Below, in pieces: positions 1-58,191 of a stretch of DNA of 64,000 bases (position 1 is its first letter; each line of letters starts with the position of its first letter). The notes beneath the pieces are model-generated. The model saw only the letters and a list, made by a program, of their open reading frames with translations. It did no database searches and was not told where the DNA came from. Source of the DNA: Patescibacteria group bacterium (GTDB lineage Bacteria > Patescibacteriota > Patescibacteriia > UBA2591 > UBA6264); contig JADHVF010000001.1 in assembly GCA_016784145.1 (NCBI GenBank), forward strand, positions 26,367 through 90,366, written 5' to 3'. The position numbers were made by a program, and so were the translations under genes.

Positions 1-2502
1 GATGAATATTTAGAATCATTAGAACCAATATCTGTTGAAGCAGAACCAATTGTTGCAGATATTAAGATAGATGCTTATGGAGATGAATATGTAGAGTTTG
101 CTGGTGAAAAATTTTATCAACCAGCTGGAGCTGAAATACTATCAACAACTGTTGATGGACATCCAGCAATTGAATTAATAAATACAGATGGCCAGACAAT
201 AGAAATTGTTGATTTTGGAGAAAATGGTGGATTAAAGTATTCAGCAGAATGGCCTACAGGAGAAGTTGATTATGTTGATTACAATGTATTAGGACATGAC
301 GGGTTAGTGGAAAATGGTTTTACAGAAAAGCCATGGATCAATGAATTTAATGAAGTTTTAAATGCTGAAACATTTGACGAAACAAAAGCTAAAGATTTAT
401 TATCAGATACATTACAAAAAGGTGGTTATTTAAAAGATGCTCAAGAAACAAAAGTATTTTTGCAAGTTTTGGGAGGGGAAGATGGCCATATAGACAAAAA
501 TCTTGGTGGACTTTTAGCAGGTTCTGGTAAATTTGATGAAAATGTTTTGAAAGATGCTACTGAACACTTTAAGCAAGCCACAACTAGTGAAGAATTGCCT
601 GATAGTGAAAATTGGACGCCAAGATATATTTATAATGAGGAAGGAGAGGCAGAATTAACAAATTTTCGAAAAATCGGCTGGCATAAATATGAAATTTCCC
701 ATCAAGATGGTAGTATTGAATCAATCAAGGGAGCAGGATTTCTTGGCAAAGATACTGCTGAAGACAAGCTTCAAGATTTAATGACTAAAAAAGTAGTTGA
801 AGACGTTGAACCAGTGACCCCTGACGTTGAACCAGTGACGACAGGGGGAGAGCCAGTGACGACAGAGGGAGAACCAGTGACGACAAAGGAAGAGTCAGTG
901 ACGACAAAGGAAGAGTCAGTGACGACAGAAGAAGAGTCAGTGACGACAGAGGGAGAACCAGTGACCTCTGAGGGTGAACCAGTGACTCTTGATATTGAAC
1001 CAGTAACTCCTGAGGGTGAAGTAACTGAAGAGGTTGTTCCAAAAACCACAGATGCGGAAACCCTTGACGTTGAACCAGTGACTCCTGATGTTGAACCAGT
1101 ATCAGAAATTCCAACATTTGATAGTGTAATTGCTAAAGGGGATAGTACATTCTCGTCAGACAATAAAGAAGAACTTCTAGCAACAATAAATAAATGGCAA
1201 AATACTCCAGAAGGAACAAAACAAGAAATCACAAATTATTTAGGAGAAAATGGGTCATATCCAAGTGCTGAAAAATATATTATAACTCAAACTCCTAATA
1301 ATACAGCCCAGATTGATTTTTTTAATAAAGATGATGAAATGTTGGGAAGCAGTTATACAAGCGGGAGCTTTAGGACTGAACTGCCAACAGGAGGTGCTGA
1401 CAGTCTAGCAGCAGAAGGTGATAGCGCTGAAGAAGTTGTTCCAAAAACCACAGATGCGGAAACCCCTGATGTTGAACCAGTGACCCCTGATGTTGAACCA
1501 GTGACTCCTGACGTTGAACCAGTGACTCCTGACGTTGAACCTGCTGAACAACTATTGGATAATCAAGCGACTCAGCTATCAAATGGTGAGATTACAGCAA
1601 AGGATTTTATTAATAATAGGCTGAAAGCTAATGATGGGATGATTCATAAATCAGGATCTAATAATGATTTTAGTGGGGATATGGAAAAAATATATTATAG
1701 TAGTAATTTATCTACTGATGATAAAATTAAAGTTTTGCAAGAAATTAATGAAGAAATAGAATCTAATAATCGTTATAAAGTAATTAGTGGTAGCATAAAG
1801 GAAAATCTTGAATTCTTAGAAAGACGGCAAAGCTATGAAAAATTTATGAGTAGTGATGTTTATGATGAAAGAATAACAGCATTAAATGAAATATTTGAAA
1901 GCAAGGATGTTGACGAAGGCATTGTTATGATTAATCGAAAAATATTCTCAAGAGATGCGGAGGGCGACATTTCTTATTTGGGGGATAATTTTAGTACCAA
2001 AGATCAATTTATACCAGTTAAGATAGATGCTGGGAATATAAATGACATAGCAGAAGGGAATATAGAGTTAGACCCTGTAGAAACCACAGAGCCAGTGACG
2101 ACAGAGGGAGAACCAGTGACTTCTGAGGGTGAACCAGTGACTTCTGAGGGTGAACCAGTGACTTCTGAGGGTGAACCAGTGACTTCTGAGGGTGAACCAG
2201 TGACGACAGAGGGAGAGCCAGTAACTTCTGAGGGTGAACCAGTGACTCCTGATGTTGAACCAGTGACTCCTGACGTTGAACCAGTGACAACAGAGGGAGA
2301 GTCAGAGATAGTTCCTGATTCAAAATTTGGTACTTATGACGAGTTTAGTAAAACCGCTGAGGCCATGACAGTCGGCACTAAGTTTAATATGGGCGGGATT
2401 GAATTTATGAGATTGACTGAGTATGGCGATATTTTAGTAGTAGAAGATGGTTCAATTATAAAAGATAAAGAAGATTGGCAGGAATTTTTAAAGAAACAAT
2501 GA
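1..2502 (+). CDS. Large acidic repeat-containing secreted/surface protein (5' end outside window; frame 1 is open from nt 1, so the ATG at 307 in the ORF track is internal)
   Basis: Frame 1 translates without a stop from nt 1 (DEYLESLEPISVEAEPIVADIKIDAYGDEYVEF...) into the 731-aa ORF. The protein is Glu/Asp/Thr/Pro-rich with four arrays of EPVT[PT][DE][VG] heptads and has no recognisable catalytic motifs. Confidence 0.55.
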   Translation, partial: DEYLESLEPISVEAEPIVADIKIDAYGDEYVEFAGEKFYQPAGAEILSTTVDGHPAIELINTDGQTIEIVDFGENGGLKYSAEWPTGEVDYVDYNVLGHDGLVENGFTEKPWINEFNEVLNAETFDETKAKDLLSDTLQKGGYLKDAQETKVFLQVLGGEDGHIDKNLGGLLAGSGKFDENVLKDATEHFKQATTSEELPDSENWTPRYIYNEEGEAELTNFRKIGWHKYEISHQDGSIESIKGAGFLGKDTAEDKLQDLMTKKVVEDVEPVTPDVEPVTTGGEPVTTEGEPVTTKEESVTTKEESVTTEEESVTTEGEPVTSEGEPVTLDIEPVTPEGEVTEEVVPKTTDAETLDVEPVTPDVEPVSEIPTFDSVIAKGDSTFSSDNKEELLATINKWQNTPEGTKQEITNYLGENGSYPSAEKYIITQTPNNTAQIDFFNKDDEMLGSSYTSGSFRTELPTGGADSLAAEGDSAEEVVPKTTDAETPDVEPVTPDVEPVTPDVEPVTPDVEPAEQLLDNQATQLSNGEITAKDFINNRLKANDGMIHKSGSNNDFSGDMEKIYYSSNLSTDDKIKVLQEINEEIESNNRYKVISGSIKENLEFLERRQSYEKFMSSDVYDERITALNEIFESKDVDEGIVMINRKIFSRDAEGDISYLGDNFSTKDQFIPVKIDAGNINDIAEGNIELDPVETTEPVTTEGEPVTSEGEPVTSEGEPVTSEGEPVTSEGEPVTTEGEPVTSEGEPVTPDVEPVTPDVEPVTTEGESEIVPDSKFGTYDEFSKTAEAMTVGTKFNMGGIEFMRLTEYGDILVVEDGSIIKDKEDWQEFLKKQ
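803..1030. repeat. Tandem 21-bp repeats (gttgaaccagtgac[gt]cctga[ct]-type) encoding EPVTxxx heptads, array 1 (approximate bounds)
   Basis: Direct reading shows repeated ccagtgacgacagagggagaa / gaaccagtgac units in frame with the CDS. Confidence 0.8.
1440..1548. repeat. Tandem 21-bp repeats, array 2 (4x cctga[ct]gttgaaccagtgac)
   Basis: Near-identical 21-mers. The preceding 40 bp (gaagaagttgttccaaaaaccacagatgcggaaaccc) also duplicate nt 1024-1066. Confidence 0.8.
2088..2300. repeat. Tandem 21-bp repeats, array 3 (about 10 units gaaccagtgacttctgagggt)
   Basis: Five consecutive identical 21-mers (ccagtgacttctgagggtgaa) plus variants. They encode TEGEPVTSEGEPVTSEGEPVT... Confidence 0.85.
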
Positions 2503-9408: not shown

Positions 9409-10350
9409 ATGATTGAACAAAAAATATCAAAGAATATTTTATTAGCCCCTTTTACAACTTTTAAAATTGGTGGTCAAGCCAAATATTTTTTAAAAGTCAA
9501 AAAAGTTCAAGATATAATTAAAGCTATTCAGTGGGCTAATAAAGAAAAAGTAGATTTTTTTATATTAGGAGGCGGGAGCAATGTTTTATTTTCAGACAAA
9601 GAATTCAATGGGTTAATAATAAAAATTGAGAGTATAAAGAATGGTATGGTTGTTTTGCCTAAGCAATCAGGTCATTTAAGAGTAATTGCTTGGGCTGGTA
9701 ATAATTTATCTCAATTAATTAATTTTGTATCAAGTAGGGGTGGGAAGGGATTAGAGCACATGGCAGGCATCCCTGGTACAATTGGAGGAGCTGTCCGAGG
9801 TAATGCTGGGGCATTTGGAGTGTCAATGTCTGATTTTGTGGAACAAGTGAGTGTTTTAAGGGATGGCAAAATCATTGATTTGAGAAATAAAAATATAAAG
9901 TTTTTTTATAGAGATAGCATTTTTAAACATAATCAAGATGTTATTTTAAATATAGTTTTACGGTTTGGTAAAACATCTTCTATTGAAAGTAAAAAAATAA
10001 TTCAAGCTAACATTAAGCAAAGAAGAAAATTTCAGCCGAAAGAACCAAGCGTTGGCTGTATTTTTAAAAATATAAAACTTAATGATATCCCATTTCAAAT
10101 AAAAAAAAGTGATTTAATTTCAGATAATTTTAAGAAATTAGGAATGATTCCAGCTGGACTACTGATTGATAAATGTGGGTTAAAGGGAGAGATTATCAAC
10201 GATGCTCAAATTAGTACACAACATGCTAATTTTATAATAAATAAAAAAAATGCTAAATCAGAAGATGTTGTGGCTCTTATTAAAAAAATTAAAAAATGTG
10301 TTAAAGATAAATTCAATATTAATTTAAGGGAAGAAATTAAATATGTCTGA
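9409..10350 (+). CDS. murB: UDP-N-acetylenolpyruvoylglucosamine reductase
   Basis: FTTFKIGGQAKYF, ILGGGSNVLF and GIPGTIGGAVRGNAGAFG are FAD-binding MurB motifs. Confidence 0.8.
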   Translation: MIEQKISKNILLAPFTTFKIGGQAKYFLKVKKVQDIIKAIQWANKEKVDFFILGGGSNVLFSDKEFNGLIIKIESIKNGMVVLPKQSGHLRVIAWAGNNLSQLINFVSSRGGKGLEHMAGIPGTIGGAVRGNAGAFGVSMSDFVEQVSVLRDGKIIDLRNKNIKFFYRDSIFKHNQDVILNIVLRFGKTSSIESKKIIQANIKQRRKFQPKEPSVGCIFKNIKLNDIPFQIKKSDLISDNFKKLGMIPAGLLIDKCGLKGEIINDAQISTQHANFIINKKNAKSEDVVALIKKIKKCVKDKFNINLREEIKYV

Positions 10351-11008
10351 CCCTAAAATGCAACATAATTTTAAATCGTTCAAGATATATATTTTGGGAG
10401 TATTTTGTTTATTGATATTTTTTTTGTCCATGTGGTTACCAACAGCAGAGATAGTTTTAACTACTTTCCCGGAACCATTAATTGCTGATTTTAGAATAAA
10501 GTTAAATGCTAGCGTGAATGATATTTTTTTTAACTTAGAAACTATTCCGGCTGAAGTTGTGTCTCTCAATCAATTTAACAAACAAGAGGATAGCAGGTTT
10601 ATTAATGGATTGATTGATGAGGATAACAGAAATATAATTATTTTTAAAGAGGATGATTTATTAAAATTCGTGGATTATAAAATAAAAGATATCTCAAAGG
10701 GCTCTTTGACTAACAAAAACATTATTTCAATTAATCCTGATAAGTGGCAAGTAGAAGTATTGAAAAAAGATTTTATTAATAAAAATGCGTTGATAAGCTT
10801 AAAAATAAATGAACAGGTTGTTAGAGATTATGATTATAATTCTTTAAGAGGTAAGATTGTTTCAAAAAAAATTAATCAAGCCAAAATAGAAATTAAAAAA
10901 TATTTAATAGTAGAAGACATTGTTATTAATGTTTGGCCTGGCTTTAAAAAACAAATGCCAATGTTCGAGAATAGAATGAAAATTAAAGTAAAACATAATA
11001 TAAATTAG
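10343..11008 (+). CDS. Hypothetical bitopic membrane protein (possibly FtsQ/DivIB-like; unsupported beyond position and topology)
   Basis: N-terminal TM helix (IYILGVFCLLIFFLSMWL) followed by a soluble domain. It overlaps the murB stop by 8 nt. Confidence 0.35.
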   Translation: MSDPKMQHNFKSFKIYILGVFCLLIFFLSMWLPTAEIVLTTFPEPLIADFRIKLNASVNDIFFNLETIPAEVVSLNQFNKQEDSRFINGLIDEDNRNIIIFKEDDLLKFVDYKIKDISKGSLTNKNIISINPDKWQVEVLKKDFINKNALISLKINEQVVRDYDYNSLRGKIVSKKINQAKIEIKKYLIVEDIVINVWPGFKKQMPMFENRMKIKVKHNIN

Positions 11009-11438: not shown

Positions 11439-11828
11439 ATGGCAAGAATATCAGGGATTAATTTACCATTAAACAAAAGAGCAGAAATAGGCTTGACCTA
11501 TATTTTTGGGATTGGGAAGAGTACATCAAATAAAATATTAGAAACAGTTAAAATAGATAAAAATAAATTAATAAAAGATTTGTCTGAAGGGGAAGTAGAA
11601 AAAGTTAGGTCTATTATCGAAAAAAATTATAAAGCAGAAGGAGTATTAAAACGACAAATCCTGGACAATATAAAAAGATTAAAACAGATTAATTCTTATA
11701 GAGGCACGAGACATTCAAAGAGGTTGCCAGTTAGAGGGCAAAGAACAAAAACAAATAGCCGGACAATAAGAGGAAATGTTAGAAAAAAAGGAGCTAGTGG
11801 AAAAAAAGCGTCTGGTAAAAAAGTTTAA
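11439..11828 (+). CDS. rpsM: 30S ribosomal protein S13
   Basis: MARISGINLP N-terminus and a basic C-terminal tail. Confidence 0.9.
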   Translation: MARISGINLPLNKRAEIGLTYIFGIGKSTSNKILETVKIDKNKLIKDLSEGEVEKVRSIIEKNYKAEGVLKRQILDNIKRLKQINSYRGTRHSKRLPVRGQRTKTNSRTIRGNVRKKGASGKKASGKKV

Positions 11829-12234: not shown

Positions 12235-12867
12235 ATGAAAGCAACCCCAAGATGTAAAATTTGTAGACGAGAAGGCGTAAAACTTTTTTTAAAGGGAGAT
12301 AGGTGCTCAACTTCTAAGTGTTCTTTTGTTAAGAAGAAATATCCACCTGGAATACATGGACCAACCCAACGAATTAGAAGAACAGAGTATGGTATTCAGT
12401 TGAGAGAGAAACAAAAATTAAAAAGATTTTTTGGAATTTCAGAAAAACAATTAAGAAATTATTTTGCCAAGGCACAGAGATTAAAAGGAAATTCAGAAAC
12501 AAATTTTTTAAAATTATTAGAAAAAAGACTAGACAATGTTGTTTATAGGGGTGGGATAGCTAAATCAAGAAGACAAGCAAGACAGATTGTTAGTCACGGG
12601 AATGTTTTAGTGAACGGGATAAGATTAAATATCCCTTCTCATCAAGTAAAGGCTGGAGATTTGATTAAAATTAAAGACAAGCAAGGAGTAGTTAAATTTA
12701 TAAAAGAATCAATTGGCCAAGCTAGTAAAAAAGATCAAGAATCAATCCCGTTATGGCTTAGTTTTGACTCTAAAAAACTAGAAATAAAGGTTTTAAAAGA
12801 AATTTCAGAAGAAAGTTTACCAAAAGAGTTTAATACAGGACTAATCATTTCTTTTTTAAGTAGATAA
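12235..12867 (+). CDS. rpsD: 30S ribosomal protein S4 (zinc-ribbon form)
   Basis: N-terminal CKICRREG...CSTSKC, then an S4 RNA-binding domain (RLDNVVYRGGIAKSRRQARQIVSHGNVLVNG). Confidence 0.9.
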   Translation: MKATPRCKICRREGVKLFLKGDRCSTSKCSFVKKKYPPGIHGPTQRIRRTEYGIQLREKQKLKRFFGISEKQLRNYFAKAQRLKGNSETNFLKLLEKRLDNVVYRGGIAKSRRQARQIVSHGNVLVNGIRLNIPSHQVKAGDLIKIKDKQGVVKFIKESIGQASKKDQESIPLWLSFDSKKLEIKVLKEISEESLPKEFNTGLIISFLSR

Positions 12868-12885
12868 AAAAAATAATATAATTTT

Positions 12886-13779
12886 ATGGAGAAAAATTTT
12901 TTAGCAAAGAAAATTAAATATACAGAAGATTCAACCAATAAAAATAAAGGATTAATAGAGATAGAGCCATGTTATCCGGGTTATGGAATAACCTGGGGGA
13001 ATGCGATTAGAAGAGTTTTGTTATCATCTCTTGAGGGCTCGGCTGTTACTTGCATAAAAATAAAAGGAACAAAGCATGAATTTTCTGTTATTGATAATAT
13101 AAAAGAAGATGTAATGGAGATTATCTTGAATTTAAAATTATTAAGATTTAAAATTTTAAAAAATCAAGATGAGCCAATCAAATTAACATTATCAGTCAAA
13201 GGAGAAAAAAAAGTTTTAGGAAAGGACATTAATGAATCTTTAAGTGCAGAAGTAGTTAATAAGGATTTAGTGATTGCAAATTTAACAGATAAGCAAGCAA
13301 AATTAGATATAGATATTTGGGTTGAAAAAGGATATGGGTGGGTATCATCAGAAGACAAATCAAGGCAAGGGCTTGATGTTGGTGTGATTGTGGTTGATTC
13401 CATTTTTAGCCCTATTTTAAATGTTGGGTTAAATATAGATGATGTTCGTGTTGGGAAAAGAACAGATTTTGACAAAATTAGTTTACGAATAGAAACAGAT
13501 GGCATTATTAGTCCGATTGATGCTTTTCTTAAGGCATCAAAATTATTATCATCTCAATTTGATTTTTTTATTAATTTGACTAATTCAGAGGACGAGAAGC
13601 CTAAAAAGGTAGTTAAAAAAATTGCTAAGAAAGTCCCTGTTAAGAAAAAAGTTGTTAAAAAAGCAGTTAAGAAAGTCCCTGTTAAGAAAAAAGTTGTTAA
13701 AAAAGCAGTTAAGAAAGTCCCTGTTAAGAAAAAAGTTGTTAAAAAAGCAGTTAAGAAGAAAACAATCAAGAAAAAATAA
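12886..13779 (+). CDS. rpoA: DNA-directed RNA polymerase alpha subunit with N-terminal domain only and a lysine-rich repeat tail
   Basis: The N-terminal domain is recognisable (LIEIEPCYPGYGITWGNAIRRVLLSSLEGSAVTCIKIKG). After about residue 228 the sequence becomes KKVVKKIAKKVPVKKKVVKKAVKK repeated, with no alpha-CTD-like sequence. Total 297 aa. Confidence 0.8.
   Translation: MEKNFLAKKIKYTEDSTNKNKGLIEIEPCYPGYGITWGNAIRRVLLSSLEGSAVTCIKIKGTKHEFSVIDNIKEDVMEIILNLKLLRFKILKNQDEPIKLTLSVKGEKKVLGKDINESLSAEVVNKDLVIANLTDKQAKLDIDIWVEKGYGWVSSEDKSRQGLDVGVIVVDSIFSPILNVGLNIDDVRVGKRTDFDKISLRIETDGIISPIDAFLKASKLLSSQFDFFINLTNSEDEKPKKVVKKIAKKVPVKKKVVKKAVKKVPVKKKVVKKAVKKVPVKKKVVKKAVKKKTIKKK
13627..13752. repeat. Three perfect 42-bp tandem copies (aagaaagtccctgttaagaaaaaagttgttaaaaaagcagtt) encoding KKVPVKKKVVKKAV inside rpoA
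   Basis: Copies at 13627-13668, 13669-13710 and 13711-13752 are identical on direct reading. Confidence 0.9.
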
Positions 13780-13798
13780 AGCGAATTAAGATAATTAT

Positions 13799-14149
13799 AT
13801 GAGACACAGGAAAAAGGGGAAAATTTTAGGAAGAAAATATGCTCAAAGAAAAGCACTATATAGAGATTTAAGCAATGCTTTGATTTTAAATGATAAAATA
13901 AAAACAACAGAAGCTAAAGCAAAGGCAGTTAAGCCTATAGTTGAAAGATTAATAACAAGGGCAAAAGAAAATAGTATTACTAATTATAGAAGAATAAATT
14001 CATTTTTACAGAGTAGGGAATCAACTAAAAAAATTTTAGAAGAAATAGGACCAAAATACAAAACTAGACCAGGTGGGTATTCTAGAATTATTAAAACAGG
14101 TCCAAGAAAAGGAGATAATGCAAAAATGGTAATATTGGAACTTGTTTAA
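13799..14149 (+). CDS. rplQ: 50S ribosomal protein L17
   Basis: MRHRKKGKILGRKYAQRKALYRDL N-terminus. Conserved position after rpoA. Confidence 0.9.
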   Translation: MRHRKKGKILGRKYAQRKALYRDLSNALILNDKIKTTEAKAKAVKPIVERLITRAKENSITNYRRINSFLQSRESTKKILEEIGPKYKTRPGGYSRIIKTGPRKGDNAKMVILELV

Positions 14150-14155
14150 AATTAT

Positions 14156-14518
14156 ATGTCAAAAATAAAAATAGATAGAAAAATTCAAAAATTAGACGCC
14201 CGGGGAGAGATTTTAGGAAGATTTGCTAGTCAGATAGCTCAATTGCTTATGGGTAAAGGGAAAGAGAGTTATGTTCCAAATGTTGATGTTGGGGATATTG
14301 TTATTGTTAAAAACATGGATAAGATAAAAGTTACTGGCAATAAATTAAAACAAAAAAAATATTATAGACATAGTGGATATACTGGTAATCTGAAAATAAA
14401 AAAAATGGAAGAAATACTAGAAGAATCTCCTGAAAAATTGTTGGAGTTTGCTGTTTTTAACATGTTGCCTAAAAATAAATTAAGAAAACCAAGAATGAAA
14501 AGATTGCGGTTTGAATAA
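14156..14518 (+). CDS. rplM: 50S ribosomal protein L13
   Basis: ARGEILGRFASQIAQLLMGKGKESYVPNVDVGDIVIV matches the L13 N-terminal region. Confidence 0.85.
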   Translation: MSKIKIDRKIQKLDARGEILGRFASQIAQLLMGKGKESYVPNVDVGDIVIVKNMDKIKVTGNKLKQKKYYRHSGYTGNLKIKKMEEILEESPEKLLEFAVFNMLPKNKLRKPRMKRLRFE

Positions 14519-14545
14519 AATGTTTTTTATTTTTGGAAAATAAGT

Positions 14546-14576
14546 ATTTAGGGGTTTAACCCCTAAATTTTTTTTA
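14546..14576 (+). terminator. Rho-independent terminator after rplM
   Basis: A 9-bp stem (atttagggg / cccctaaat) with a 5-nt loop, followed by a T9 run. Confidence 0.75.
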
Positions 14577-14612
14577 CATTGCTTTAATTAATAAAAATGT
14601 TAATATATATTT

Positions 14613-15116
14613 ATGTTAGAGATAAAAAAATATAATAATTCTTGCTTAAGGGTTAAATGCAAAAAAGTTGAACAGGTTACAGAACAAGTAGAAGTATTTA
14701 CAGAGAAGATGTTAAAAACAATGCATTTAAATGATGGTATTGGGTTATCTGCTCCACAAGTAGGGGATAATAGGAGAATTATTGTTATTGATATAAACCC
14801 GATTATAGGAAAAAAAAATAAAGGGTTGTTTTCTTTGATAAATCCTGAGATAATAAAAACAAGCGAAAAATATATTAAAATAAATGAAGGTTGTTTAAGT
14901 TTGCCAGGGGTAAATTTAAAGATTAAAAGACATAAAACAATCAAAGTAAAGGCATACTCAGTAAAACATAAAAAAGAAATTATTATACAAGCAAGCGGGT
15001 TGCTTTCAGCTGTTCTACAGCACGAAATTGATCACCTGGATGGAGTTTTGATTATTGATAGGGTGGGTTTTTTTGCAAAAAGAAAAGCATTAAAAAGAAT
15101 AGATAGTAATTATTGA
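14613..15116 (+). CDS. def: Peptide deformylase
   Basis: GIGLSAPQVG, EGCLS and HEIDHLDG are the three deformylase motifs. Confidence 0.85.
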   Translation: MLEIKKYNNSCLRVKCKKVEQVTEQVEVFTEKMLKTMHLNDGIGLSAPQVGDNRRIIVIDINPIIGKKNKGLFSLINPEIIKTSEKYIKINEGCLSLPGVNLKIKRHKTIKVKAYSVKHKKEIIIQASGLLSAVLQHEIDHLDGVLIIDRVGFFAKRKALKRIDSNY

Positions 15117-27130: not shown

Positions 27131-28306
27131 ATGAGCATGAAAATAGCCCACATTGTTTCAACTTTTCTACCATATAAGGGAGGCATGGGAAATGTTTGTT
27201 TGAAAGAAGCAGAGGCCATGGCCAAACAAGGGCATAAAATTATTGTTTTTACTCTTGATAAAGGGAAAAGGAGTAATACTAAAATAGATAATCTCAACAT
27301 TGAATACATAAAACCAATCTTTAGATATGGCAACACTGGTTTTGTGCCGAATATTTATAAAAAATTAAAACAATTTGACATTATTCATATCCACTGGCCA
27401 TTTATTGGTGGAGCAGATGTGGTTATTTTGTGGAAATATATTAGCAGAAGCAAAATTCCAGTGGTTGTTCAGTATGACATGGATTTAGTAGATACTGGCA
27501 TAAGAGGGGTTGTCTTTAATATTTACAATACTTTTTTTAATTTTTTGTTTGCAAGAATTGCTGATAAAATAATTGTTAATTCTTTTGACTATGCTCGTCA
27601 TACAAATATAAAGAAATATTTAAAAAAATATAAAGAAAAATTTTTACAAATTCCTCATGGTGTTGATGATAAAAGGTTTTATCCATCTAAAAAAAATGAG
27701 GAATTATTAAAAAAATATAATATTCAAAAACAAGATAAAGTTATTTTATTTGTAGGTGGACTTGATAGAGCTCATTATTTTAAAGGCATTGGTATTTTAA
27801 TAAAAGCATATCAAAAATTGATATTAGAATATAAAATCAGGGGAGTAAAATTATTAATTATTGGTAAAGGGGATTTACTTGTTAAATATAAAAAATTAGC
27901 AAATAAGTTAAATATAAGTAGAAATATAATTTTTACTGGTAGCGTTTCAGATGAATCTTTGCCAGATTATTATAATTTATCAGATATTTTTGTATTAGCA
28001 TCAACAACAAGATCAGAATCATTTGGTCTTGTTTTGCTTGAAGCAATGGCTTGTCAAAAGCCAGTTATAGTATCAAATCTTCCTGGGCCAAGGAAGCTGG
28101 TTAAAGATAATGGTCTTGTTTTTGAAATAAATGATTATAAAGATTTGGCAAGGAAAATAAAAGCATTGCTAAAAGACGAGATTAAAAGAGAATATTTTGG
28201 AGAACAAAGTTTAGTTTTGGTTAAAGAAAAATATCAATGGCAAAAAATAAACAAAGAACTAGGTCAAGTTTATGAAAAAATTATCAATAATCAAAGAAAT
28301 AAATAA
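27131..28306 (+). CDS. Family-4 (GT-B) glycosyltransferase
   Basis: N-terminal KIAHIVSTFLPYKGGMGNVCLKEA...GHKIIVFT and C-terminal EAMACQKPVIVSN (E-x7-E region). Confidence 0.7.
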   Translation: MSMKIAHIVSTFLPYKGGMGNVCLKEAEAMAKQGHKIIVFTLDKGKRSNTKIDNLNIEYIKPIFRYGNTGFVPNIYKKLKQFDIIHIHWPFIGGADVVILWKYISRSKIPVVVQYDMDLVDTGIRGVVFNIYNTFFNFLFARIADKIIVNSFDYARHTNIKKYLKKYKEKFLQIPHGVDDKRFYPSKKNEELLKKYNIQKQDKVILFVGGLDRAHYFKGIGILIKAYQKLILEYKIRGVKLLIIGKGDLLVKYKKLANKLNISRNIIFTGSVSDESLPDYYNLSDIFVLASTTRSESFGLVLLEAMACQKPVIVSNLPGPRKLVKDNGLVFEINDYKDLARKIKALLKDEIKREYFGEQSLVLVKEKYQWQKINKELGQVYEKIINNQRNK

Positions 28307-30551
28307 GGATAAATATTTAATTTTCAGCATAACATCATTGTTGTCAGTTATTATTTGGTATTTTAATTTTGAATTTTGGCAAAATCAAATTCTTTATTTT
28401 TTTATTTTTTTTATTTATGTAGTTATAAATTCAAGTTGTCTTGGTAAAATATTGGGGTACTTTGGATTCGAAGAAGAGTTACAATTTATTTTTGGAATAT
28501 TTGCATTACTTTATTTGATTGCGTTTGGCATGGCAATTCCGATAGTTTTTTTCAAGATAACACCTGTTTGGTTGTTATGCTTGCTTTTATGTTTATCTTT
28601 GATTTTGTCTTTTATTTCAAAAAAAATTAAATATTCTTCAAAAAAAATTACTTTAATTAAATCAAAATTTATTTTTAAAGTACCGAAGGCAAATATTGTT
28701 TTTGGTGTTTTTCTTTGGTTGTTTTGTTTTTTTCTTTTGTTTTATTCTAGGACAGGTCAATATATTCGTTCTCCATGGACAGTTATTCATCCTCTATATC
28801 TTTATGCTTGGGCTGGAATTATTTTTATGACGGGTTGCCTTGTTTTTTCAAAAATAAAATTAAAATATTTTTTAATAATAATTGTTTTAATGTCTTTTTT
28901 AACCCATGCTTATTTGTTGATTCCATATAAGTCTGGTTTTGGTGGAGACAAGTGGAGACACATTGGGGCAGCCAAGTCATTAATGCAAGGAAATGCATAT
29001 AAGCCCTCCTTGTTAGATGAGGAAATTACATATAAAGAGTTTGGTTCTTTTAAAATTCCAGAAGTATTTATTGCTGGCAATAAAACTTCATATGCAAACA
29101 TGTGGGGGATGACAATTGCTTTATCATGGTTGTTAGGTGTTGATGTTTTTTACATTGATTTGATTTTAGGGATTATTCTTTTTTCGCTTTTTTTACCCTA
29201 CTTGCTTTTAAAAATAGGGAGTTTTATATCTCAAAAAAAGACATTTTTATTTTTATTTGTTTTGTCTTCATTTTTGTTTTATCCTTTGCAAGCATATGCA
29301 AGTATTACCGTCCCAATGAGTTTTGCTTTTTTGCCTTTTTTGTTTTCTCTAATTTTTTTATTAAAATATTTTTCAGAAAAATTTAGTTCTAAAAAATTAT
29401 TTTATTATCTTTTGTTTTTTAGTATATTTTTGTATTTTAATTATATTTTATATTTAATTTTATTTATAGAAATTTTATTTTTACTTATTTTGTTTAAAAA
29501 TATTTCATTTAAAAAATTATCAAGTATAAAAATTATTTTATTATTAGTTGGTTGTTTTATGCTGTTGTTATTTTTTATTCCTATTTTAGATACATATAAT
29601 AATTATTCATGGTTTAAGGATGATATTCCAAGTATTGGAAAAAGTTTTAAAGAATTTTCTAAAAATATTTTATATTCAAATGTAATATTCCCTAGAAGTT
29701 ATGGCTTTGAACAGGACAATTGGCTTTATGCTACAACAGGATTAAATTTAAGCAGGTCAATTCTATCTGAAATTTTGCCATGGAATTTTATTTTAACACC
29801 ATTGCTTTGGGTAATTATATTATTTGGAATAATTTTTTATAAAAAATTAAAACAACCTAAAATAGTAATATTGTTTCTTTTTCTTTTAATATTGGTTTTT
29901 GCAAGTCAAATGATAGCTACTTACTTTATGGAAGGCAATCATATTTTTAGTAAACGTCTCGTTATTTTTAGTTCGTTTTTAGTTATGATTTTATTATCCT
30001 GGGGAGGTCATCAATTAGTAGAAAATTTATCATTAAAGTTTTTTTCTTTTAAGGCAATTGTTTATTTGCTGGCTTTATTTTTCTCTCTGGTGGCTACTAG
30101 TGTTTATATGTCAGGGCCAAAGTTCCAAGTAGTAACTGCTGATGAATATCAATCAGCTAAATATGTTTGGCAAGCAATAGAATCAGAGGTTTCTGAAACA
30201 GGGAATGCTTGTGTGCTTGCAAATACGTGGCCATTATTGGCCTTGGAGGCAGTTTCAAGTCGGCAGATTTTAACTGGAGGGTTTCCTTTTTATTATGAGT
30301 ATAGACAACCAGAAAGAGTTCAATTATTTCAGAACATGAATGAATCTCCTTCTGTTCGTTATTTAGATAAATCCATAGAAATCACTAAGTCAAAAAATTG
30401 TTATTTCATGACTGAATCAAGATGGATTTTATTTGATAAAAGGGAAGAAATAGTTGAGCAAATAGATAAAATAATAGGGGGTCATATTAATATTGGTAAG
30501 GTTATGATATGGAAATATCAACCAAATCATTTAATAAAAAATAGTTTATGA
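28272..30551 (+). CDS. Large polytopic membrane protein (at least 14 TM), possibly a GT-C-type glycosyltransferase or glycan polymerase
   Basis: 759 aa and highly hydrophobic. Operonic with GT2/GT4: it overlaps the GT4 3' end by 35 nt. No diagnostic motif recognised. Confidence 0.4.
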   Translation: MKKLSIIKEINKDKYLIFSITSLLSVIIWYFNFEFWQNQILYFFIFFIYVVINSSCLGKILGYFGFEEELQFIFGIFALLYLIAFGMAIPIVFFKITPVWLLCLLLCLSLILSFISKKIKYSSKKITLIKSKFIFKVPKANIVFGVFLWLFCFFLLFYSRTGQYIRSPWTVIHPLYLYAWAGIIFMTGCLVFSKIKLKYFLIIIVLMSFLTHAYLLIPYKSGFGGDKWRHIGAAKSLMQGNAYKPSLLDEEITYKEFGSFKIPEVFIAGNKTSYANMWGMTIALSWLLGVDVFYIDLILGIILFSLFLPYLLLKIGSFISQKKTFLFLFVLSSFLFYPLQAYASITVPMSFAFLPFLFSLIFLLKYFSEKFSSKKLFYYLLFFSIFLYFNYILYLILFIEILFLLILFKNISFKKLSSIKIILLLVGCFMLLLFFIPILDTYNNYSWFKDDIPSIGKSFKEFSKNILYSNVIFPRSYGFEQDNWLYATTGLNLSRSILSEILPWNFILTPLLWVIILFGIIFYKKLKQPKIVILFLFLLILVFASQMIATYFMEGNHIFSKRLVIFSSFLVMILLSWGGHQLVENLSLKFFSFKAIVYLLALFFSLVATSVYMSGPKFQVVTADEYQSAKYVWQAIESEVSETGNACVLANTWPLLALEAVSSRQILTGGFPFYYEYRQPERVQLFQNMNESPSVRYLDKSIEITKSKNCYFMTESRWILFDKREEIVEQIDKIIGGHINIGKVMIWKYQPNHLIKNSL

Positions 30552-31411
30552 GATATAAAAAAATTATCTTATATTTTTATCGTTTAATTCTTTGCTTATT
30601 TTTAGTTTGTTTTTTTGCTTGGTTATTTAATAAAAATATAATTCCACAAGGACATTTATTTTTGTCAAAGGATTTTTGCTCTAAATCAAGTTTTGTTTCT
30701 AATTTATATCCCGAAAATAGAGTTGGAGAAATTGAAATAGATGAAAATTCTAATTGTTGGCAAAAAATTTTTGTAGAGCCGGTTTATTTTAAAACAAAAA
30801 TTCCTAGAACTTTTACAAGAGCATCTGTAAAAATAAGTTACTCTAATCCAGATCAAGCTATTTTTCAAGTAGGATTGATGAAAAAAAGAATCAATCCACT
30901 TGATTGGAATTTTAAATTAAAATTAATTGAAAATAAAATTTTTGATGAACTAGATTGGCATAAATTAACAAGGGAAAATGTTACATTATGGCAAAAAGAA
31001 AAAAAGTTTAATACTATTCATGAATATGTTAATAATGTCCCTGATGATCAAAAAACAGTCACATTTTATTATCAGTTTGATGAACAGGCAATAAAGGATA
31101 AAACAAAAGTGGTTGGTTGGAATAGAAAAACTCCATTAGAATATGTTGACTATATTATTGCTAAATATGAGCCACCCCAGGTCATGGGAGAATGGAAGGA
31201 AAAAACAATAGAGTTTTTAGTTGGGCCAGATTATATGAATAACCATGCTTTGGAATTTATAATATCTTCTCCGGGATTAACAGTTAATCGTAATGAAATT
31301 AAAATTAATAAAATAGAAATTAATTTATATAGAAAAAATAGTAATTTCAAGATTTTTATAGAAGACATTGTTTTCTATTTGTCTAAAAAAATAGCTAAAA
31401 TTATAAATTAA
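30548..31411 (+). CDS. Hypothetical membrane-anchored protein, translationally coupled to the preceding gene
   Basis: ATGA overlap with the upstream gene, N-terminal TM helix, 287 aa. Confidence 0.4.
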   Translation: MRYKKIILYFYRLILCLFLVCFFAWLFNKNIIPQGHLFLSKDFCSKSSFVSNLYPENRVGEIEIDENSNCWQKIFVEPVYFKTKIPRTFTRASVKISYSNPDQAIFQVGLMKKRINPLDWNFKLKLIENKIFDELDWHKLTRENVTLWQKEKKFNTIHEYVNNVPDDQKTVTFYYQFDEQAIKDKTKVVGWNRKTPLEYVDYIIAKYEPPQVMGEWKEKTIEFLVGPDYMNNHALEFIISSPGLTVNRNEIKINKIEINLYRKNSNFKIFIEDIVFYLSKKIAKIIN

Positions 31412-45774: not shown

Positions 45775-47304
45775 ATGAAAAAGAAATATTTAAAAATTAG
45801 TTTTTGGTTTTTGTTAATAATAGTAATTTGTTTGCTTTGGTTATCTTGGCAGGTCAAAAAAAATCAACAATTATATTCATTACTCCCTATTGAACAAGCA
45901 CAAGTAAAAATTATTAGAAGCCCGGCAGTGGCTGGAACTTTTTATCCTTCATCTCCATCTGTTTTGAAAAACACTATCAATCAATTTTTAGACAAAGTGC
46001 AAATAATAGAAACAGATAATCAAATAATGGGGTTAATATTGCCTCATGCGGGCTATCAATATTCGGGCCAGGTAGCTAGTTATGGAATTAAGCAATTAGC
46101 AGGGCAATCAATAGACACAATTATTTTAATTGGCAATAGTCATTATGATAGGTTTGACGGAATCTCTGTTTATGAACAAGGATATTATAAAACACCCTTG
46201 GGGGAAGTCAAGATAGATTCTGTTTTAGCGAGCAAGATTATCAATGCTAATAAGCGAATTTTTTTTAGAACTAAAGCGCATGAGCAAGAACATGGTTTGG
46301 AGGTTGAGTTACCTTTATTACAACAAGTATTAGATAATTTTAAGATTGTGCCGATTATGTTTGGAAATGGTAGCGATGATGATTATAAAATTTTAGCTGA
46401 AGCAATTGTTAAACACACGGCTAATAAAAATGTTTTATTAATTGCTAGTTCTGACTTATCTCATTATCCGTCCAGAAATCATGCGAGAATTGCTGACTTA
46501 AAAACAATTGATTCAATTTTAACTGGAGAGGTTGATCAATTTAAAAATACTATACTTAAATTAAAGCAAGAGGGGATTCCAAATGCCTCAACCTTTGCTT
46601 GTGGACAGGATGCTATAAAAACAGTGATGCAGGCATTGAAACAAATGAATGCAAATGAAATTAAATTATTTAATTATGCTAATTCAGGCGATGTTATAGA
46701 GACAGAGCAAAAAGTGGTTGGATATACTAGTATTGGTTTTTTTGGAGCCAGAAGAGGGGATTTATTGAATAAATTAGAAAAAGAAAAACTTTTACAGATT
46801 GCTAAACAAACAATAACATCGCATGTTTTAAATAAAAAAATTCCTGAATTCGAAATTAATTCAGGCAAATTAAAAGAAAATTTAGGAGCCTTTGTCACCA
46901 TAAGAAAACAGGGGAGACTAAGAGGTTGTATTGGTAGGTTTTCTCCAACAACAGTTCCATTACATCAAGTTGTATCTGAAATGGCTATATCTGCCTCTTC
47001 AAATGATAGTAGATTTCCGCCAGTTCAACCAAATGAGTTAGCAGAGCTTGATTACGAGGTTTCTGTTTTAAGTAATTTGATAAAAATTGATGATTGGCAA
47101 GAAATTGAATTAGGTAAGCATGGTGTGCAAATCAGGCAGGGCATGAGAAGTGGCGTGTTTTTGCCACAAGTTGCTACTGATAACAATTGGGACATAAATA
47201 GGTTTATGGGTGAGTTATGTTCTCAAAAAGCAGGGCTGGCATATGATTGCTGGAAAAATAATAATGTTGAAATTTATGTTTTTACGGCCCAGGTTTTCGA
47301 ATAG
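45775..47304 (+). CDS. Fused Memo-like (AmmeMemoRadiSam protein B) and AMMECR1 (protein A) protein with an N-terminal signal anchor
   Basis: The Memo/MEMO1 motifs are AGTFYPSSP, LPHAGYQYSG and IGNSHY. The AMMECR1 motifs are GAFVTIRKQGRLRGCIGRF and GVFLPQVA. The N-terminus MKKKYLKISFWFLLIIVICLLWL is a hydrophobic segment. 509 aa. Confidence 0.8.
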   Translation: MKKKYLKISFWFLLIIVICLLWLSWQVKKNQQLYSLLPIEQAQVKIIRSPAVAGTFYPSSPSVLKNTINQFLDKVQIIETDNQIMGLILPHAGYQYSGQVASYGIKQLAGQSIDTIILIGNSHYDRFDGISVYEQGYYKTPLGEVKIDSVLASKIINANKRIFFRTKAHEQEHGLEVELPLLQQVLDNFKIVPIMFGNGSDDDYKILAEAIVKHTANKNVLLIASSDLSHYPSRNHARIADLKTIDSILTGEVDQFKNTILKLKQEGIPNASTFACGQDAIKTVMQALKQMNANEIKLFNYANSGDVIETEQKVVGYTSIGFFGARRGDLLNKLEKEKLLQIAKQTITSHVLNKKIPEFEINSGKLKENLGAFVTIRKQGRLRGCIGRFSPTTVPLHQVVSEMAISASSNDSRFPPVQPNELAELDYEVSVLSNLIKIDDWQEIELGKHGVQIRQGMRSGVFLPQVATDNNWDINRFMGELCSQKAGLAYDCWKNNNVEIYVFTAQVFE

Positions 47305-56868: not shown

Positions 56869-57023
56869 TAAATTATTAAGAAAGCAGGGTAGGGAACTGA
56901 CCCAATGATCCTGCTAGCAACCCTTAAAATAATTTTTTAAGAAGGTGCTAATTTCAGCCCTAAAATAGGGGAAGATAAAGGTCTATTATTTGTTTATCTC
57001 TTTCCTCTAGGAAAGAGCTTTTT
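56869..57023 (+). promoter_or_regulatory. SAM-I (S-box) riboswitch with terminator/antiterminator expression platform, leader of metK
   Basis: The core aligns with B. subtilis yitJ. UUAUUAAGAAAGCAG matches the P1/J1-2 segment. AGGGAACUGACCC...GCAACC matches P2. AAGGUGCUAAUUUCAGCC matches P3. GAAGAUAAAG matches the 3' strand of P1. The terminator is an 8-bp stem (ctctttcc / ggaaagag, loop tcta, then cttttt) at 56998-57023. The antiterminator is agataaa (56973-56979) paired with tttatct (56992-56998). Confidence 0.8.
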
Positions 57024-57036
57024 AAATTAAAAACAT

Positions 57037-58191
57037 ATGAAAAAATATTTAACATCAGAGTCTGTAACAGAAGGACATCCAGATAAATTAGCAGATCAAA
57101 TATCAGATGCTATTTTGGATGTTTATCTGAGAAAAGATTTTAAGTCACGAGTTGCTTGCGAAACATTAATAACAAAAGATAATATTATTGTGGCTGGCGA
57201 AATTACTTCTAGTGCACAAGTAGATATTGAACAAATCGTTAAAAAAGTTGTTAATAATGTTGGCTATAATAATCCTGATTATGGTTTTGATATTAATAAT
57301 TGTGAGATTAGGGTATTTATTCAAAAGCAATCTCCAGATATTTCTCAGGGAGTTAATGCAATTAAATTAACAGCCATTGGGGCAGGTGATCAAGGATTAA
57401 TGTATGGCTATGCAACTAACGAAACAGATGAATACATGCCCCTGCCAATTGTTTTAGCGCATAAACTTACCAAACAATTAATGCTTATTAGAAAGAGTAA
57501 AAAATTGGCTTATTTAAGACCTGATGGAAAAAGTCAGGTAACAGTAGAATACAAGAATAATAAACCAAGCAAAATAAATAATATTGTCGTGGCAGCACAG
57601 CATAATCCTAAGATTGACATAAATCAATTAAGGGCAGATATTATTAAAAATGTCATTCAACCAGTTATTCCTCAAAAAATGTTTACTTCTAATATTAAAT
57701 ATTTTATTAATACCACGGGCCGTTTTGTATTTGGTGGTCCAGCAGCAGACACTGGTTTAACAGGACGAAAAATTATTATTGATACATATGGAGGAGCAGG
57801 TAGACATGGTGGGGGATGTTTTTCCGGAAAAGATCCAAGCAAGGTTGATAGAAGTGCTAGCTATGGAGCGCGTTGGGTGGCTAAAAACATAGTAGCCGCG
57901 GGGTTGGCAGATAAAATTGAAATACAGTTGGCCTATTCTATTGGTAAAGCTCAACCATTATCAATTAACATAGATACTTTTAATACTGCCAAGCTAGCAG
58001 ATGAAAAAATTATTAAAATAATAAACAAAGTATTTGATTTAAGACCAGGTATGTTAATTAAAGAACTTGATTTATTAAGGCCAATTTATCAGCCAACGGC
58101 TAAATACGGACATTTTGGCAGGGATGATTTGGATTTGCCATGGGAAAAGTTAAACAAGCTAAATTCAATTAATTCCTTATTAAGTAGATGA
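57037..58191 (+). CDS. metK: S-adenosylmethionine synthetase
   Basis: [34 protein letters not shown] and [17 protein letters not shown] motifs. Confidence 0.9.

What the first reader, a model, noticed from the sequence alone, without database searches (positions are those of the whole stretch)
12886..13779. RNA polymerase alpha subunit whose C-terminal domain is replaced by a histone-H1-like lysine-rich tandem repeat
The alpha N-terminal dimerisation/assembly domain is clear. After about residue 228 the protein consists of KKVVKKIAKK followed by three copies of KVPVKKKVVKKAVK. At DNA level these are three perfect 42-bp repeats at 13627-13752, which suggests recent expansion. No helix-hairpin-helix alpha-CTD sequence is present. 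Alpha-CTD normally contacts UP elements and activators. A polylysine tail would instead give sequence-nonspecific DNA affinity.
Basis: partly seen in the sequence, partly recalled or inferred. Interest (0 to 1): 0.55.

Follow-up and report, generated by a model that had tools for sequence, protein, structure and literature searches.

The report
RNA polymerase alpha with polylysine tail
This is the RNA polymerase alpha subunit gene of an uncultured Parcubacteria (CPR) bacterium in which a disordered 58-residue tail, more than half lysine, replaces the usual C-terminal domain that contacts DNA and activators; a whole clade shares this, which suggests these bacteria hold promoter DNA differently.

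Summary
ORF 12886-13779 (+) is rpoA, in the conserved S13-S11-S4-rpoA-L17 operon. Residues 1-236 form a confident alpha N-terminal domain. Residues 240-297 are 31 K, 17 V, 4 A, 3 P, 2 I and 1 T (net +31), predicted disordered, and include three perfect 42-bp repeats at 13627-13752. No alpha-CTD was found by Pfam, a custom profile over all six frames of the window, profile-profile comparison or structure prediction. L17 starts 19 nt after the stop, so no hidden C-terminus fits.

This is a lineage trait. Of the 120 closest homologues (Patescibacteria/Parcubacteria), 107 lack the CTD and about 74 carry Lys-rich tails. One sister clade ends in an acidic linker plus KKKRGRPKK, an AT-hook-like motif; other relatives have no tail or keep the CTD. 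A 99.9%-identical strain has two repeat units instead of three.

The best reading is a flexible polycationic tether that binds nucleic acid without sequence specificity, most likely upstream promoter DNA, in place of the alpha-CTD/UP-element contact. That function is inferred, not shown.

The searched literature has one sentence noting alpha-CTD loss in Parcubacteria. I found nothing on the replacement tails. I class it as a new variant of a known kind, of moderately high interest.

The parts
12886..13779 (+). rpoA coding sequence (297 codons plus TAA stop)
   Evidence: ORF list. Pfam PF01000 + PF01193. TIGR02027 above its cut-off. Same gene between S4 and L17 in L001.
12886..13584 (+). alpha N-terminal domain (residues 1-233), for dimerisation and beta/beta' assembly
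   Evidence: AlphaFold2 pLDDT about 90 for residues 4-236. Foldseek matches solved RpoA NTDs with target-normalised TM about 0.9. phmmer aligns query 19-237 to E. coli alpha 21-240.
13585..13602 (+). short acidic hinge SEDEKP (residues 234-239), at the position where the E. coli inter-domain linker begins
   Evidence: Sequence. Mapping to E. coli alpha.
13603..13776 (+). Lys-rich tail, residues 240-297 (31 K, 17 V, 4 A, 3 P, 2 I, 1 T; net +31), predicted disordered; replaces linker plus alpha-CTD
   Evidence: Composition. pLDDT <50 and no secondary structure for 239-293. No PF03118. hhalign against the CTD profile gives probability 0.02%.
13627..13752 (+). three perfect tandem 42-bp units, each encoding KKVPVKKKVVKKAV; a diverged partial unit lies upstream from 13603
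   Evidence: Exact identity of the three units. TRF period 42, 3.7 copies. L001 has exactly one unit fewer.
13799..14149 (+). rplQ (ribosomal protein L17), starting 19 nt after the rpoA stop; leaves no room for a CTD exon
   Evidence: ORF list. Pfam Ribosomal_L17 for the identical gene in L001.
12235..12867 (+). rpsD (ribosomal protein S4), the upstream operon neighbour
   Evidence: ORF list. Pfam Ribosomal_S4/S4 for the L001 equivalent.
13554..13907 (-). antisense shadow ORF (117 aa, F/L/T-rich). This and the +2-frame ORF 13622-13789 are by-products of the repeat, not genes.
   Evidence: ORF list translations. No profile hits in the six-frame search.

Best explanation
The gene encodes the only alpha subunit seen at the canonical rpoA locus of an uncultured, AT-rich (29.7% GC) Parcubacteria/Patescibacteria bacterium.

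What is shown. The N-terminal domain is intact and should assemble core RNA polymerase normally. The flexible linker and the helix-hairpin-helix alpha-CTD have been replaced by a 58-residue, intrinsically disordered, polycationic tail. The tail evolves by tandem-repeat expansion and contraction while staying strongly basic.

What is inferred. The two tails per polymerase (about +60 charge in total) leave the enzyme at the point where the alpha-CTD tether normally emerges, on the side facing upstream DNA. They act as electrostatic tethers to nucleic acid, probably with a preference for the AT-rich minor groove. The most likely target is DNA upstream of the -35 region. This would supply the general, activator-independent part of alpha-CTD function: an UP-element-like increase in promoter binding and upstream wrapping. 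The activator-docking role would be lost. Sister lineages that end in an acidic linker plus a KKKRGRPKK AT-hook-like motif appear to solve the same problem with a different minimal DNA-binding module.
For: Identity and integrity of the NTD.

Absence of the CTD:
- Pfam at E<=10 finds none.
- A custom profile built from 13 Parcubacterial CTDs, run against all six frames of the window, gives a best E of 0.02, inside NusG.
- hhalign of the tail profile against the CTD profile gives probability 0.02%.
- The tail has pLDDT <50 and no secondary structure.
- rplQ starts 19 nt downstream.

The architecture is real rather than an assembly artefact. An independent ENA contig, 99.8-99.9% identical, has the same end.

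Lineage-wide conservation of the basic character despite sequence turnover:
- 107 of the 120 best homologues lack PF03118.
- About 74 have tails with net charge at least +8, and +16 to +36 in the query's clade at only 57-65% NTD identity.
- Different relatives carry their own perfect repeats of 12, 13, 14 or 20 aa. L002 has a 36-bp DNA repeat.

The tail is not a simple product of AT bias:
- K-rich tails occur at 34-45% GC.
- CTD-bearing genomes span 32-48% GC.
- The three lowest-GC genomes (25-27%) have mixed tails.
- The tail lacks N, F, Y, L, S, D and E, which make up much of the local proteome. Residue types absent from the tail are 59% of that proteome, and D+E alone are 10%.

Independent pointer to DNA binding: 13 of the 120 homologues and 9 GTDB species representatives end in K/R-flanked RGRP after an acidic linker of 35-55 residues.

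Precedent: lysine repeats replace the canonical C-terminal DNA-binding domains of actinobacterial topoisomerase I and stabilise the enzyme-DNA complex (PMC5714199).
Against: - No experiment or tool here measures DNA binding. The function is inferred from charge, position and analogy.
- A polycation binds RNA, polyphosphate and acidic membranes as readily as DNA.
- Some related lineages have no tail at all (233-238 aa proteins), so a tail is not essential once the CTD is gone.
- Perfect repeats and length variation are also what neutral slippage in an AT-rich genome produces.
- The AT-hook match is below Pfam's gathering score (9-14 bits against 17.4).
- Only 64 kb of this genome could be searched for a trans-encoded CTD.
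- The exact copy number (3 versus 2) could be affected by short-read assembly of a perfect tandem repeat.
Confidence: 0.6

Rival explanations
1. Tolerated low-complexity filler. After the alpha-CTD was lost during genome reduction, replication slippage in A-rich sequence produced a lysine-codon-rich 3' extension with no specific function.
For: - Three perfect 42-bp units and a 2-versus-3 copy difference between near-identical strains.
- Tail sequences are not alignable across the clade except for the lysines.
- Tail-less alpha subunits exist in related lineages.
- The genome is 29.7% GC.
Against: - A strong net positive charge (+16 to +36) persists across the whole clade despite sequence turnover.
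- Acidic residues and the AT-favoured residues N, F, Y and mostly I are excluded.
- Tail type does not track GC.
- No other ORF in the window has a comparable segment.
- A sister clade conserves a specific KKKRGRPKK ending.
Confidence: 0.15
2. The tail binds RNA or the ribosome rather than DNA. It might hold nascent transcripts or couple RNA polymerase to the lead ribosome, a role partly served elsewhere by NusA/NusG and the alpha-CTD.
For: - Polycationic tails bind RNA well.
- Parcubacteria carry other basic C-terminal extensions tied to the ribosome. uS19 has an Ala/Lys-rich extension (PMC9297842).
- A positively charged YidC C-terminus that binds ribosomes is discussed for this group (PMC4508563).
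Against: - The tail occupies the attachment point of a domain whose general role is DNA contact.
- Sister lineages put an AT-hook-like, DNA minor-groove motif at the equivalent position.
- There is no direct evidence either way.
Confidence: 0.15
3. The tail anchors RNA polymerase to another polyanionic surface, such as acidic membrane lipids or polyphosphate, or drives H1-like nucleoid compaction or condensates. It does not act at promoters.
For: - The KKxx periodicity with V/A/I could form a cationic amphipathic surface (sequence).
- The composition resembles linker-histone tails (own knowledge).
Against: - One proline per 14-residue unit and many beta-branched valines disfavour a helix.
- The model shows no helix.
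- This reading does not explain the AT-hook-like variant in sister clades.
Confidence: 0.07
4. Artefact. A frameshift, mis-assembly or wrong genetic code hides a normal alpha-CTD.
For: - Perfect tandem repeats are hard to assemble.
- In other CPR lineages an in-frame TGA splits rpoA into apparent NTD and CTD genes (L086).
Against: - No CTD-like sequence in any frame of the window.
- rplQ begins 19 nt after the TAA stop.
- A second assembly agrees.
- More than 100 homologues from many projects share the architecture.
Confidence: 0.02

Closest known systems
Canonical bacterial RNA polymerase alpha subunit (E. coli RpoA: NTD 1-235, flexible linker, CTD about 249-329)
   Same: Same N-terminal domain (PF01193 + PF01000; query 19-237 aligns to E. 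coli 21-240). Same operon position between rpsD and rplQ. A flexible C-terminal appendage leaves the NTD at the same point.
   Different: There is no helix-hairpin-helix CTD (PF03118), so the known UP-element and activator contact surfaces are absent. A disordered tail of net charge +31 takes its place.
Alpha subunits lacking the CTD: Hodgkinia and Tremblaya endosymbionts, Euglena chloroplasts, and a one-sentence mention for Parcubacteria (PMC8321222)
   Same: Loss of the alpha-CTD with retention of the assembly domain, in reduced genomes. [quoted passage not shown]
   Different: Those cases are presented as erosion or loss. Here, and across the clade, the CTD is replaced by a conserved class of basic tail, or by an AT-hook-like ending. 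I did not find this described. The reference cited for Parcubacteria (PMC4508563) does not contain the word 'polymerase' in its main text.
C-terminal lysine repeats of actinobacterial topoisomerase I (PMC5714199)
   Same: A canonical C-terminal DNA-binding region of a housekeeping DNA enzyme is replaced by lineage-specific lysine repeats of variable length. In TopA these stabilise the enzyme-DNA complex.
   Different: Different enzyme and phylum, and no homology. The TopA function is shown experimentally; the function here is inferred.
Linker histone H1 C-terminal domain and bacterial H1-like basic proteins (Chlamydia Hc1, mycobacterial HupB tail, Pseudomonas AlgP) - own knowledge
   Same: A disordered K/A/P/V-rich repeat region with very high positive charge and PxKK-like elements.
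   Different: No winged-helix or HU globular domain and no S/TPKK motifs. The tail is attached to RNA polymerase rather than to a chromatin protein. The resemblance is in composition only.
AT-hook (HMGA-type RGRP motif, Pfam PF02178)
   Same: Sister-lineage alpha subunits end in KKKRGRPKK after an acidic linker. The canonical AT-hook binds the AT-rich minor groove (own knowledge), which is also the mode of the alpha-CTD on UP elements.
   Different: The window protein has no RGRP. In the relatives the Pfam score is below the gathering threshold.
Archaeal RpoD / eukaryotic Rpb3-AC40
   Same: Homologous assembly-platform subunits that naturally lack an alpha-CTD (Pfam family names).
   Different: The window protein is clearly of the bacterial type (TIGR02027; best structural matches are bacterial alpha).

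Membership tests
Bacterial RNA polymerase alpha subunit (RpoA) | Rpb3/Rpb11-type dimerisation domain interrupted by the RpoA insert domain | tested here: met
   PF01193 (27-225, E 1e-16) and PF01000 (57-175, E 3.7e-27). The predicted fold matches solved alpha NTDs with target-normalised TM about 0.9.
Bacterial RNA polymerase alpha subunit (RpoA) | Reaches the curated equivalog score (TIGR02027) | tested here: met
   241 bits against a cut-off of 227.8, matching only model positions 2-232 of 298. The longer PRK05182 sub-models fall below their cut-offs because the CTD is missing.
Bacterial RNA polymerase alpha subunit (RpoA) | Conserved position in the rpsM-rpsK-rpsD-rpoA-rplQ operon | tested here: met
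Bacterial RNA polymerase alpha subunit (RpoA) | C-terminal helix-hairpin-helix domain (PF03118) on a flexible linker | tested here: not met
   No PF03118 at E<=10. Custom CTD profile negative in all six frames of the window. hhalign probability 0.02%. Tail predicted as coil with pLDDT <50.
Bacterial RNA polymerase alpha subunit (RpoA) | Alpha-CTD supplied in trans by a separate gene elsewhere in the genome | not testable with these tools
   Only the 64-kb window could be searched, and it was negative. Short PF03118 proteins in the database were contig-end fragments, a TGA-split rpoA, or stand-alone genes in unrelated contexts.
Linker histone H1 / H1-like proteins | Winged-helix globular domain (linker_histone) | tested here: not met
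   Pfam reports only the two RNA polymerase domains.
Linker histone H1 / H1-like proteins | Long disordered K/A/P-rich C-terminal tail with S/TPKK-type motifs | tested here: inconclusive
   The tail is 53% K with V, A and P and is predicted disordered. It has no S/TPKK and shows no detectable homology: a tail-only database search returned nothing.
AT-hook motif (PF02178) | RGRP core flanked by basic residues | tested here: not met
   Absent from the window protein. Present in 13 of the 120 homologues and 9 GTDB loci, but only 9-14 bits against a gathering score of 17.4.
Lysine-repeat C-terminal DNA tethers (actinobacterial TopA type) | Tandem lysine-rich repeats replacing a canonical C-terminal DNA-binding domain of a DNA enzyme | tested here: met
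   This is an analogy of architecture, not homology (PMC5714199).
Lysine-repeat C-terminal DNA tethers (actinobacterial TopA type) | Demonstrated stabilisation of the enzyme-DNA complex | not testable with these tools
   Needs biochemistry.

The most novel reading that the evidence does not exclude
A large part of the Parcubacteria radiation has given up the alpha-CTD and, with it, classical UP-element and class I activator contacts. In its place these bacteria use interchangeable minimal DNA tethers on the alpha subunit: a poly-lysine repeat tail in some clades and an acidic linker plus AT-hook in others. Promoter strength in these AT-rich, regulator-poor genomes would then be set largely by electrostatic or minor-groove capture of upstream DNA. 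This would be a natural RNA polymerase architecture not yet characterised.
Probability: 0.4. Interest if true: 0.75.

Novelty: new variant of a known kind. Interest (0 to 1): 0.6.

Why it matters
The alpha-CTD is the textbook docking point for UP elements and for many transcription activators. A major, ubiquitous and mostly uncultured bacterial radiation that lacks it must organise promoter recognition and regulation differently.

The tail variants amount to a natural experiment. Poly-lysine tails, AT-hook-like endings, no tail and a retained CTD all sit on closely related N-terminal domains. That makes the question testable by swapping tails onto E. coli or B. subtilis alpha, or by reconstituting CPR polymerase.

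It also matters for annotation. These genes are labelled simply as 'subunit alpha' and fall below several full-length model cut-offs. It is also relevant to designing expression systems and promoter predictions for CPR genomes.

Tried and rejected
- **More strains of the same species.** An exact 30-nt flank pattern found nothing in metagenome contigs. Only one further strain (L001) could be compared.
- **What else carries similar tails.** A database search with the 58-aa tail alone gave no hit at E<=0.001, because the bias correction removes low-complexity matches.
- **Stand-alone alpha-CTD genes.** A profile of 11 Parcubacterial CTDs returned only short PF03118 proteins. The eight whose contexts I inspected were as follows.
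  - Contig-end fragments of normal rpoA next to rplQ: P0121, P0137, P0138.
  - A broken rpoA: P0124.
  - An rpoA split by an in-frame TGA: P0143/L086.
  - Small alpha-CTD-like genes in unrelated, non-ribosomal contexts: P0147, P0149, P0151.
  - None bears on the K-rich lineages.
- **Source of the published statement on Parcubacteria.** The cited paper (PMC4508563) has no occurrence of 'polymerase', 'RNAP', 'alpha' or 'CTD' in its held main text.
- **Pfam AT_hook on sister-clade proteins.** The match sits at the extreme C-terminus but is below threshold. I call it AT-hook-like only.
- **Hidden or frameshifted CTD.** Rejected.
- **Pure AT-bias origin of the tail.** Rejected as a sufficient explanation.
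- **The two overlapping ORFs, 13622-13789 (+) and 13554-13907 (-).** These are repeat shadows, not genes.

Full report
**Observation**

The ORF at 12886-13779 (+) encodes 297 residues. Pfam finds the Rpb3/Rpb11 dimerisation domain (PF01193, residues 27-225) split by the RpoA insert domain (PF01000, 57-175). It finds no alpha-CTD family (PF03118) even at E<=10. NCBIfam's rpoA equivalog TIGR02027 is passed (241 bits against 227.8), but only over model positions 2-232 of 298.

The three 42-bp units at 13627-13752 are identical base for base, and each encodes KKVPVKKKVVKKAV. Tandem Repeats Finder reports period 42, 3.7 copies and 94% matches over 13603-13757.

- The last helix of the N-terminal domain runs to about residue 236.
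- A hinge, SEDEKP, follows at 234-239.
- The lysine-rich part begins at residue 240, nt 13603.

**Context**

The gene lies in the conserved order infA, rpsM, rpsK, rpsD, rpoA, rplQ, rplM. The window is 29.7% GC. It carries ordinary housekeeping genes of a small genome: gyrB, nusG, rplK, rplA, cysS, murB, def, groEL, pheST, the mraZ/mraW/PBP/mur cluster, glyA, folD and metK.

All close homologues come from Patescibacteria/Parcubacteria metagenome-assembled genomes. The best GTDB species representative is only 65% identical over the N-terminal domain (L002). The organism is therefore an unrepresented Parcubacteria lineage.

**No hidden alpha-CTD**
- rplQ starts at 13799, 19 nt after the TAA stop.
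- A profile built from 13 Parcubacterial alpha-CTDs was run with all filters off against every stop-to-stop segment of the window in six frames. The best E-value was 0.02, inside NusG.
- A profile of Lys-rich tails compared with a CTD profile by hhalign gave probability 0.02%.
- AlphaFold2, using a 45-sequence alignment, models residues 4-236 at pLDDT about 90. It leaves 239-293 below 50 with no secondary structure.
- The folded part matches solved alpha N-terminal domains, with target-normalised TM about 0.9 over 220-229 aligned columns.
- phmmer aligns query 19-237 with E. coli alpha 21-240. The tail therefore begins where the E. coli inter-domain linker begins (own knowledge of E. coli domain limits).
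- An independent ENA contig (L001) is 99.8-99.9% identical over 6.8 kb, with 9 mismatches. It has the same 3' end with exactly one 42-bp unit fewer.

The architecture is real. Only the copy number is uncertain: it may be a true polymorphism or a collapse of a perfect repeat in short-read assembly.

**The tail**

Residues 240-297 are 31 K, 17 V, 4 A, 3 P, 2 I and 1 T, net +31. Residue types that never occur in the tail make up 59% of the local proteome, and D+E alone make up 10%. The tail is the most K/R-rich 30-residue segment among 115 ORFs of the window: 17/30 against 14/30 for the next. Lys-rich tails are thus not a general habit of this genome segment.

**Comparative picture**

Of the 120 best database homologues, only 13 carry PF03118. 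Classifying the C-termini gives:

| C-terminus | Count | Notes |
|---|---|---|
| Clearly basic tail | about 74 | net +16 to +36 in the query's own clade, at 57-65% NTD identity |
| Acidic linker of 35-55 residues ending in KKKRGRPKK (AT-hook-like) | 13 | see the Pfam score at the end of this section |
| Essentially no tail | 7 | 233-238 aa proteins |
| Short mixed or acidic tail | the remainder | usually with a terminal basic patch |

In a neighbour-joining tree of the N-terminal domains these classes are largely clade-specific, and the CTD-bearing sequences mostly group apart.

The same mosaic appears in 80 GTDB species representatives:
- 25 have a CTD (for example Portnoybacteria and many Moranbacteria).
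- 11 are K-rich (for example Nealsonbacteria, including the complete genome CP179887.1).
- 9 are AT-hook-like.
- 6 are tail-less (for example Uhrbacteria).
- The rest are mixed.

Nealsonbacteria and Uhrbacteria both sit in NCBI's Parcubacteria group.

Several CTD-bearing relatives already have Lys-rich linkers, such as P0105 with AKAKAPAKAKKAVKKAVKSKK before the CTD, and P0107. This suggests, by inference only, that a basic linker came before CTD loss.

Other points from the comparison:
- Tail type does not follow base composition. K-rich tails occur at 34-45% GC, CTD forms at 32-48%, and the three lowest-GC genomes (25-27%) have mixed tails.
- Relatives carry their own, different perfect repeats of 12, 13, 14 or 20 residues. 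L002 has a 36-bp DNA repeat. The tails turn over by repeated expansion while keeping their charge.
- The Pfam AT_hook model matches the extreme C-terminus of three sister-clade proteins, but below threshold: 9-14 bits against 17.4.

**Mechanism**

The following is shown:
- The alpha assembly domain is intact.
- The CTD is absent.
- A disordered polycationic tail sits at the CTD's attachment point.
- The basic character is conserved across the lineage despite sequence turnover.

The rest is inferred. Each polymerase carries two such tails. Fully extended, 58 residues could span on the order of 200 Å. They would bind nucleic acid electrostatically, perhaps with a preference for the AT-rich minor groove.

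The most economical target is upstream promoter DNA. There the tail would reproduce the general, activator-independent contribution of alpha-CTD/UP-element contacts, and the activator-docking surface would be lost.

Two observations favour DNA as the target. Sister lineages place an AT-hook-like minor-groove motif at the end of a tether of similar length. Lysine repeats also replace the canonical C-terminal DNA-binding region of actinobacterial topoisomerase I and stabilise its DNA complex (PMC5714199).

I put about 0.6 on this reading. The structural part is close to certain. The DNA-tether function is roughly even odds.

**Rivals**
1. Neutral slippage filler, 0.15. Perfect repeats, length variation and tail-less relatives support it. 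Conserved charge, exclusion of AT-favoured and acidic residues, independence from GC and the conserved AT-hook-like ending in a sister clade argue against it.
2. RNA or ribosome binding, 0.15. Parcubacteria do have other basic C-terminal extensions linked to the ribosome: uS19 (PMC9297842) and YidC (PMC4508563).
3. Other polyanion targets or nucleoid compaction, 0.07.
4. Artefact, 0.02, effectively excluded.

**Literature**

Full-text searches combined alpha-CTD or rpoA terms with Patescibacteria, CPR or Parcubacteria, and with lysine-rich or AT-hook. [quoted passage not shown] That paper also notes CTD-less alpha subunits in Hodgkinia, Tremblaya and Euglena chloroplasts.

The paper it cites for Parcubacteria does not mention the polymerase in its held main text.

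I found no description of the replacement tails, their clade-specific classes or the AT-hook-like variant. This covers the searchable library only and does not prove absence from the literature.

**Verdict**

CTD loss in this group is known in passing. The systematic replacement by polycationic or AT-hook-like tails appears undescribed, so I rate it a new variant of a known kind, with interest 0.6.

**Limits**
- No whole genome was available to exclude a trans-encoded CTD.
- No biochemical test was possible.
- Tail classes were assigned by simple charge and motif rules.
- The tree is a quick neighbour-joining tree.
- E. coli domain boundaries, H1-like protein comparisons and AT-hook binding mode rest on my own knowledge.

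Noticed in passing
homologues P0062, P0078, P0079, P0081, P0084, P0088, P0091, P0097, P0103, P0109, P0115, P0119, P0120; loci L005, L006, L007, L009, L018, L038, L041, L054, L059 (3' end of the rpoA match): A sister clade of CTD-less alpha subunits ends in a variable acidic linker followed by a conserved KKKRGRPKK (AT-hook-like) motif at the extreme C-terminus. The Pfam AT_hook match is sub-threshold (9-14 bits against 17.4).
   Followed up: partly
window 56870-56981 (+), upstream of ORF 57037-58191: A SAM (S-box) riboswitch at 61.7 bits against a gathering score of 44.4. It lies directly upstream of metK (S-adenosylmethionine synthetase; all three Pfam domains).
   Followed up: partly
window 14156-15116: rplM (L13) is followed by a peptide deformylase gene and two tRNAs instead of rpsI (S9). 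In other Patescibacteria loci (L085-L087, L089, L090) S9 follows L13 directly. L001 has the same S9-less arrangement.
   Followed up: no
L086 992-1915: rpoA is called as two adjacent genes, NTD (220 aa) and CTD (86 aa). The cause is an in-frame TGA at 1652-1654 (...AQHFA*VADE...). This probably reflects an alternative genetic code (UGA sense, as in Gracilibacteria/Absconditabacteria) rather than a true split.
   Followed up: partly
L082 3624-3908; L084 4001-4201; L088 936-1220: Small stand-alone ORFs (66-94 aa) that match the alpha-CTD profile. They lie outside ribosomal operons, among unrelated genes (MatE, DinB, GntR, ABC transporter and others), in unidentified organisms. They may be free alpha-CTD-like proteins.
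   Followed up: partly
homologues P0105, P0107, P0108, P0112: CTD-bearing Parcubacterial alpha subunits whose inter-domain linker is already Lys-rich (for example AKAKAPAKAKKAVKKAVKSKK). This may be an intermediate on the way to the CTD-less K-rich form.
   Followed up: no
window 307-2502, 10343-11008, 28272-30551, 30548-31411: Four sizeable ORFs (731, 221, 759 and 287 aa) with no Pfam family at E<=1e-4. The 221-aa ORF is conserved next to murB in L001.
   Followed up: no
window 47282-49510 (-): A 742-aa ORF in which only residues 277-410 match a spermine/spermidine synthase domain. The rest is unassigned.
   Followed up: no
window 11439-11828 (C-terminus of S13): Ribosomal protein S13 ends in a short basic repeat, KKGASGKKASGKKV. 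This is the only other notable basic C-terminal repeat near rpoA.
   Followed up: no
L002, L006, L009, L010, L012 and others (record titles): Many third-party (TPA) assemblies whose rpoA and operon are clearly of the Patescibacteria type are titled 'uncultured Gammaproteobacteria', 'Bdellovibrionales' or 'Saccharibacteria'. The record-level taxonomy is probably wrong.
   Followed up: no
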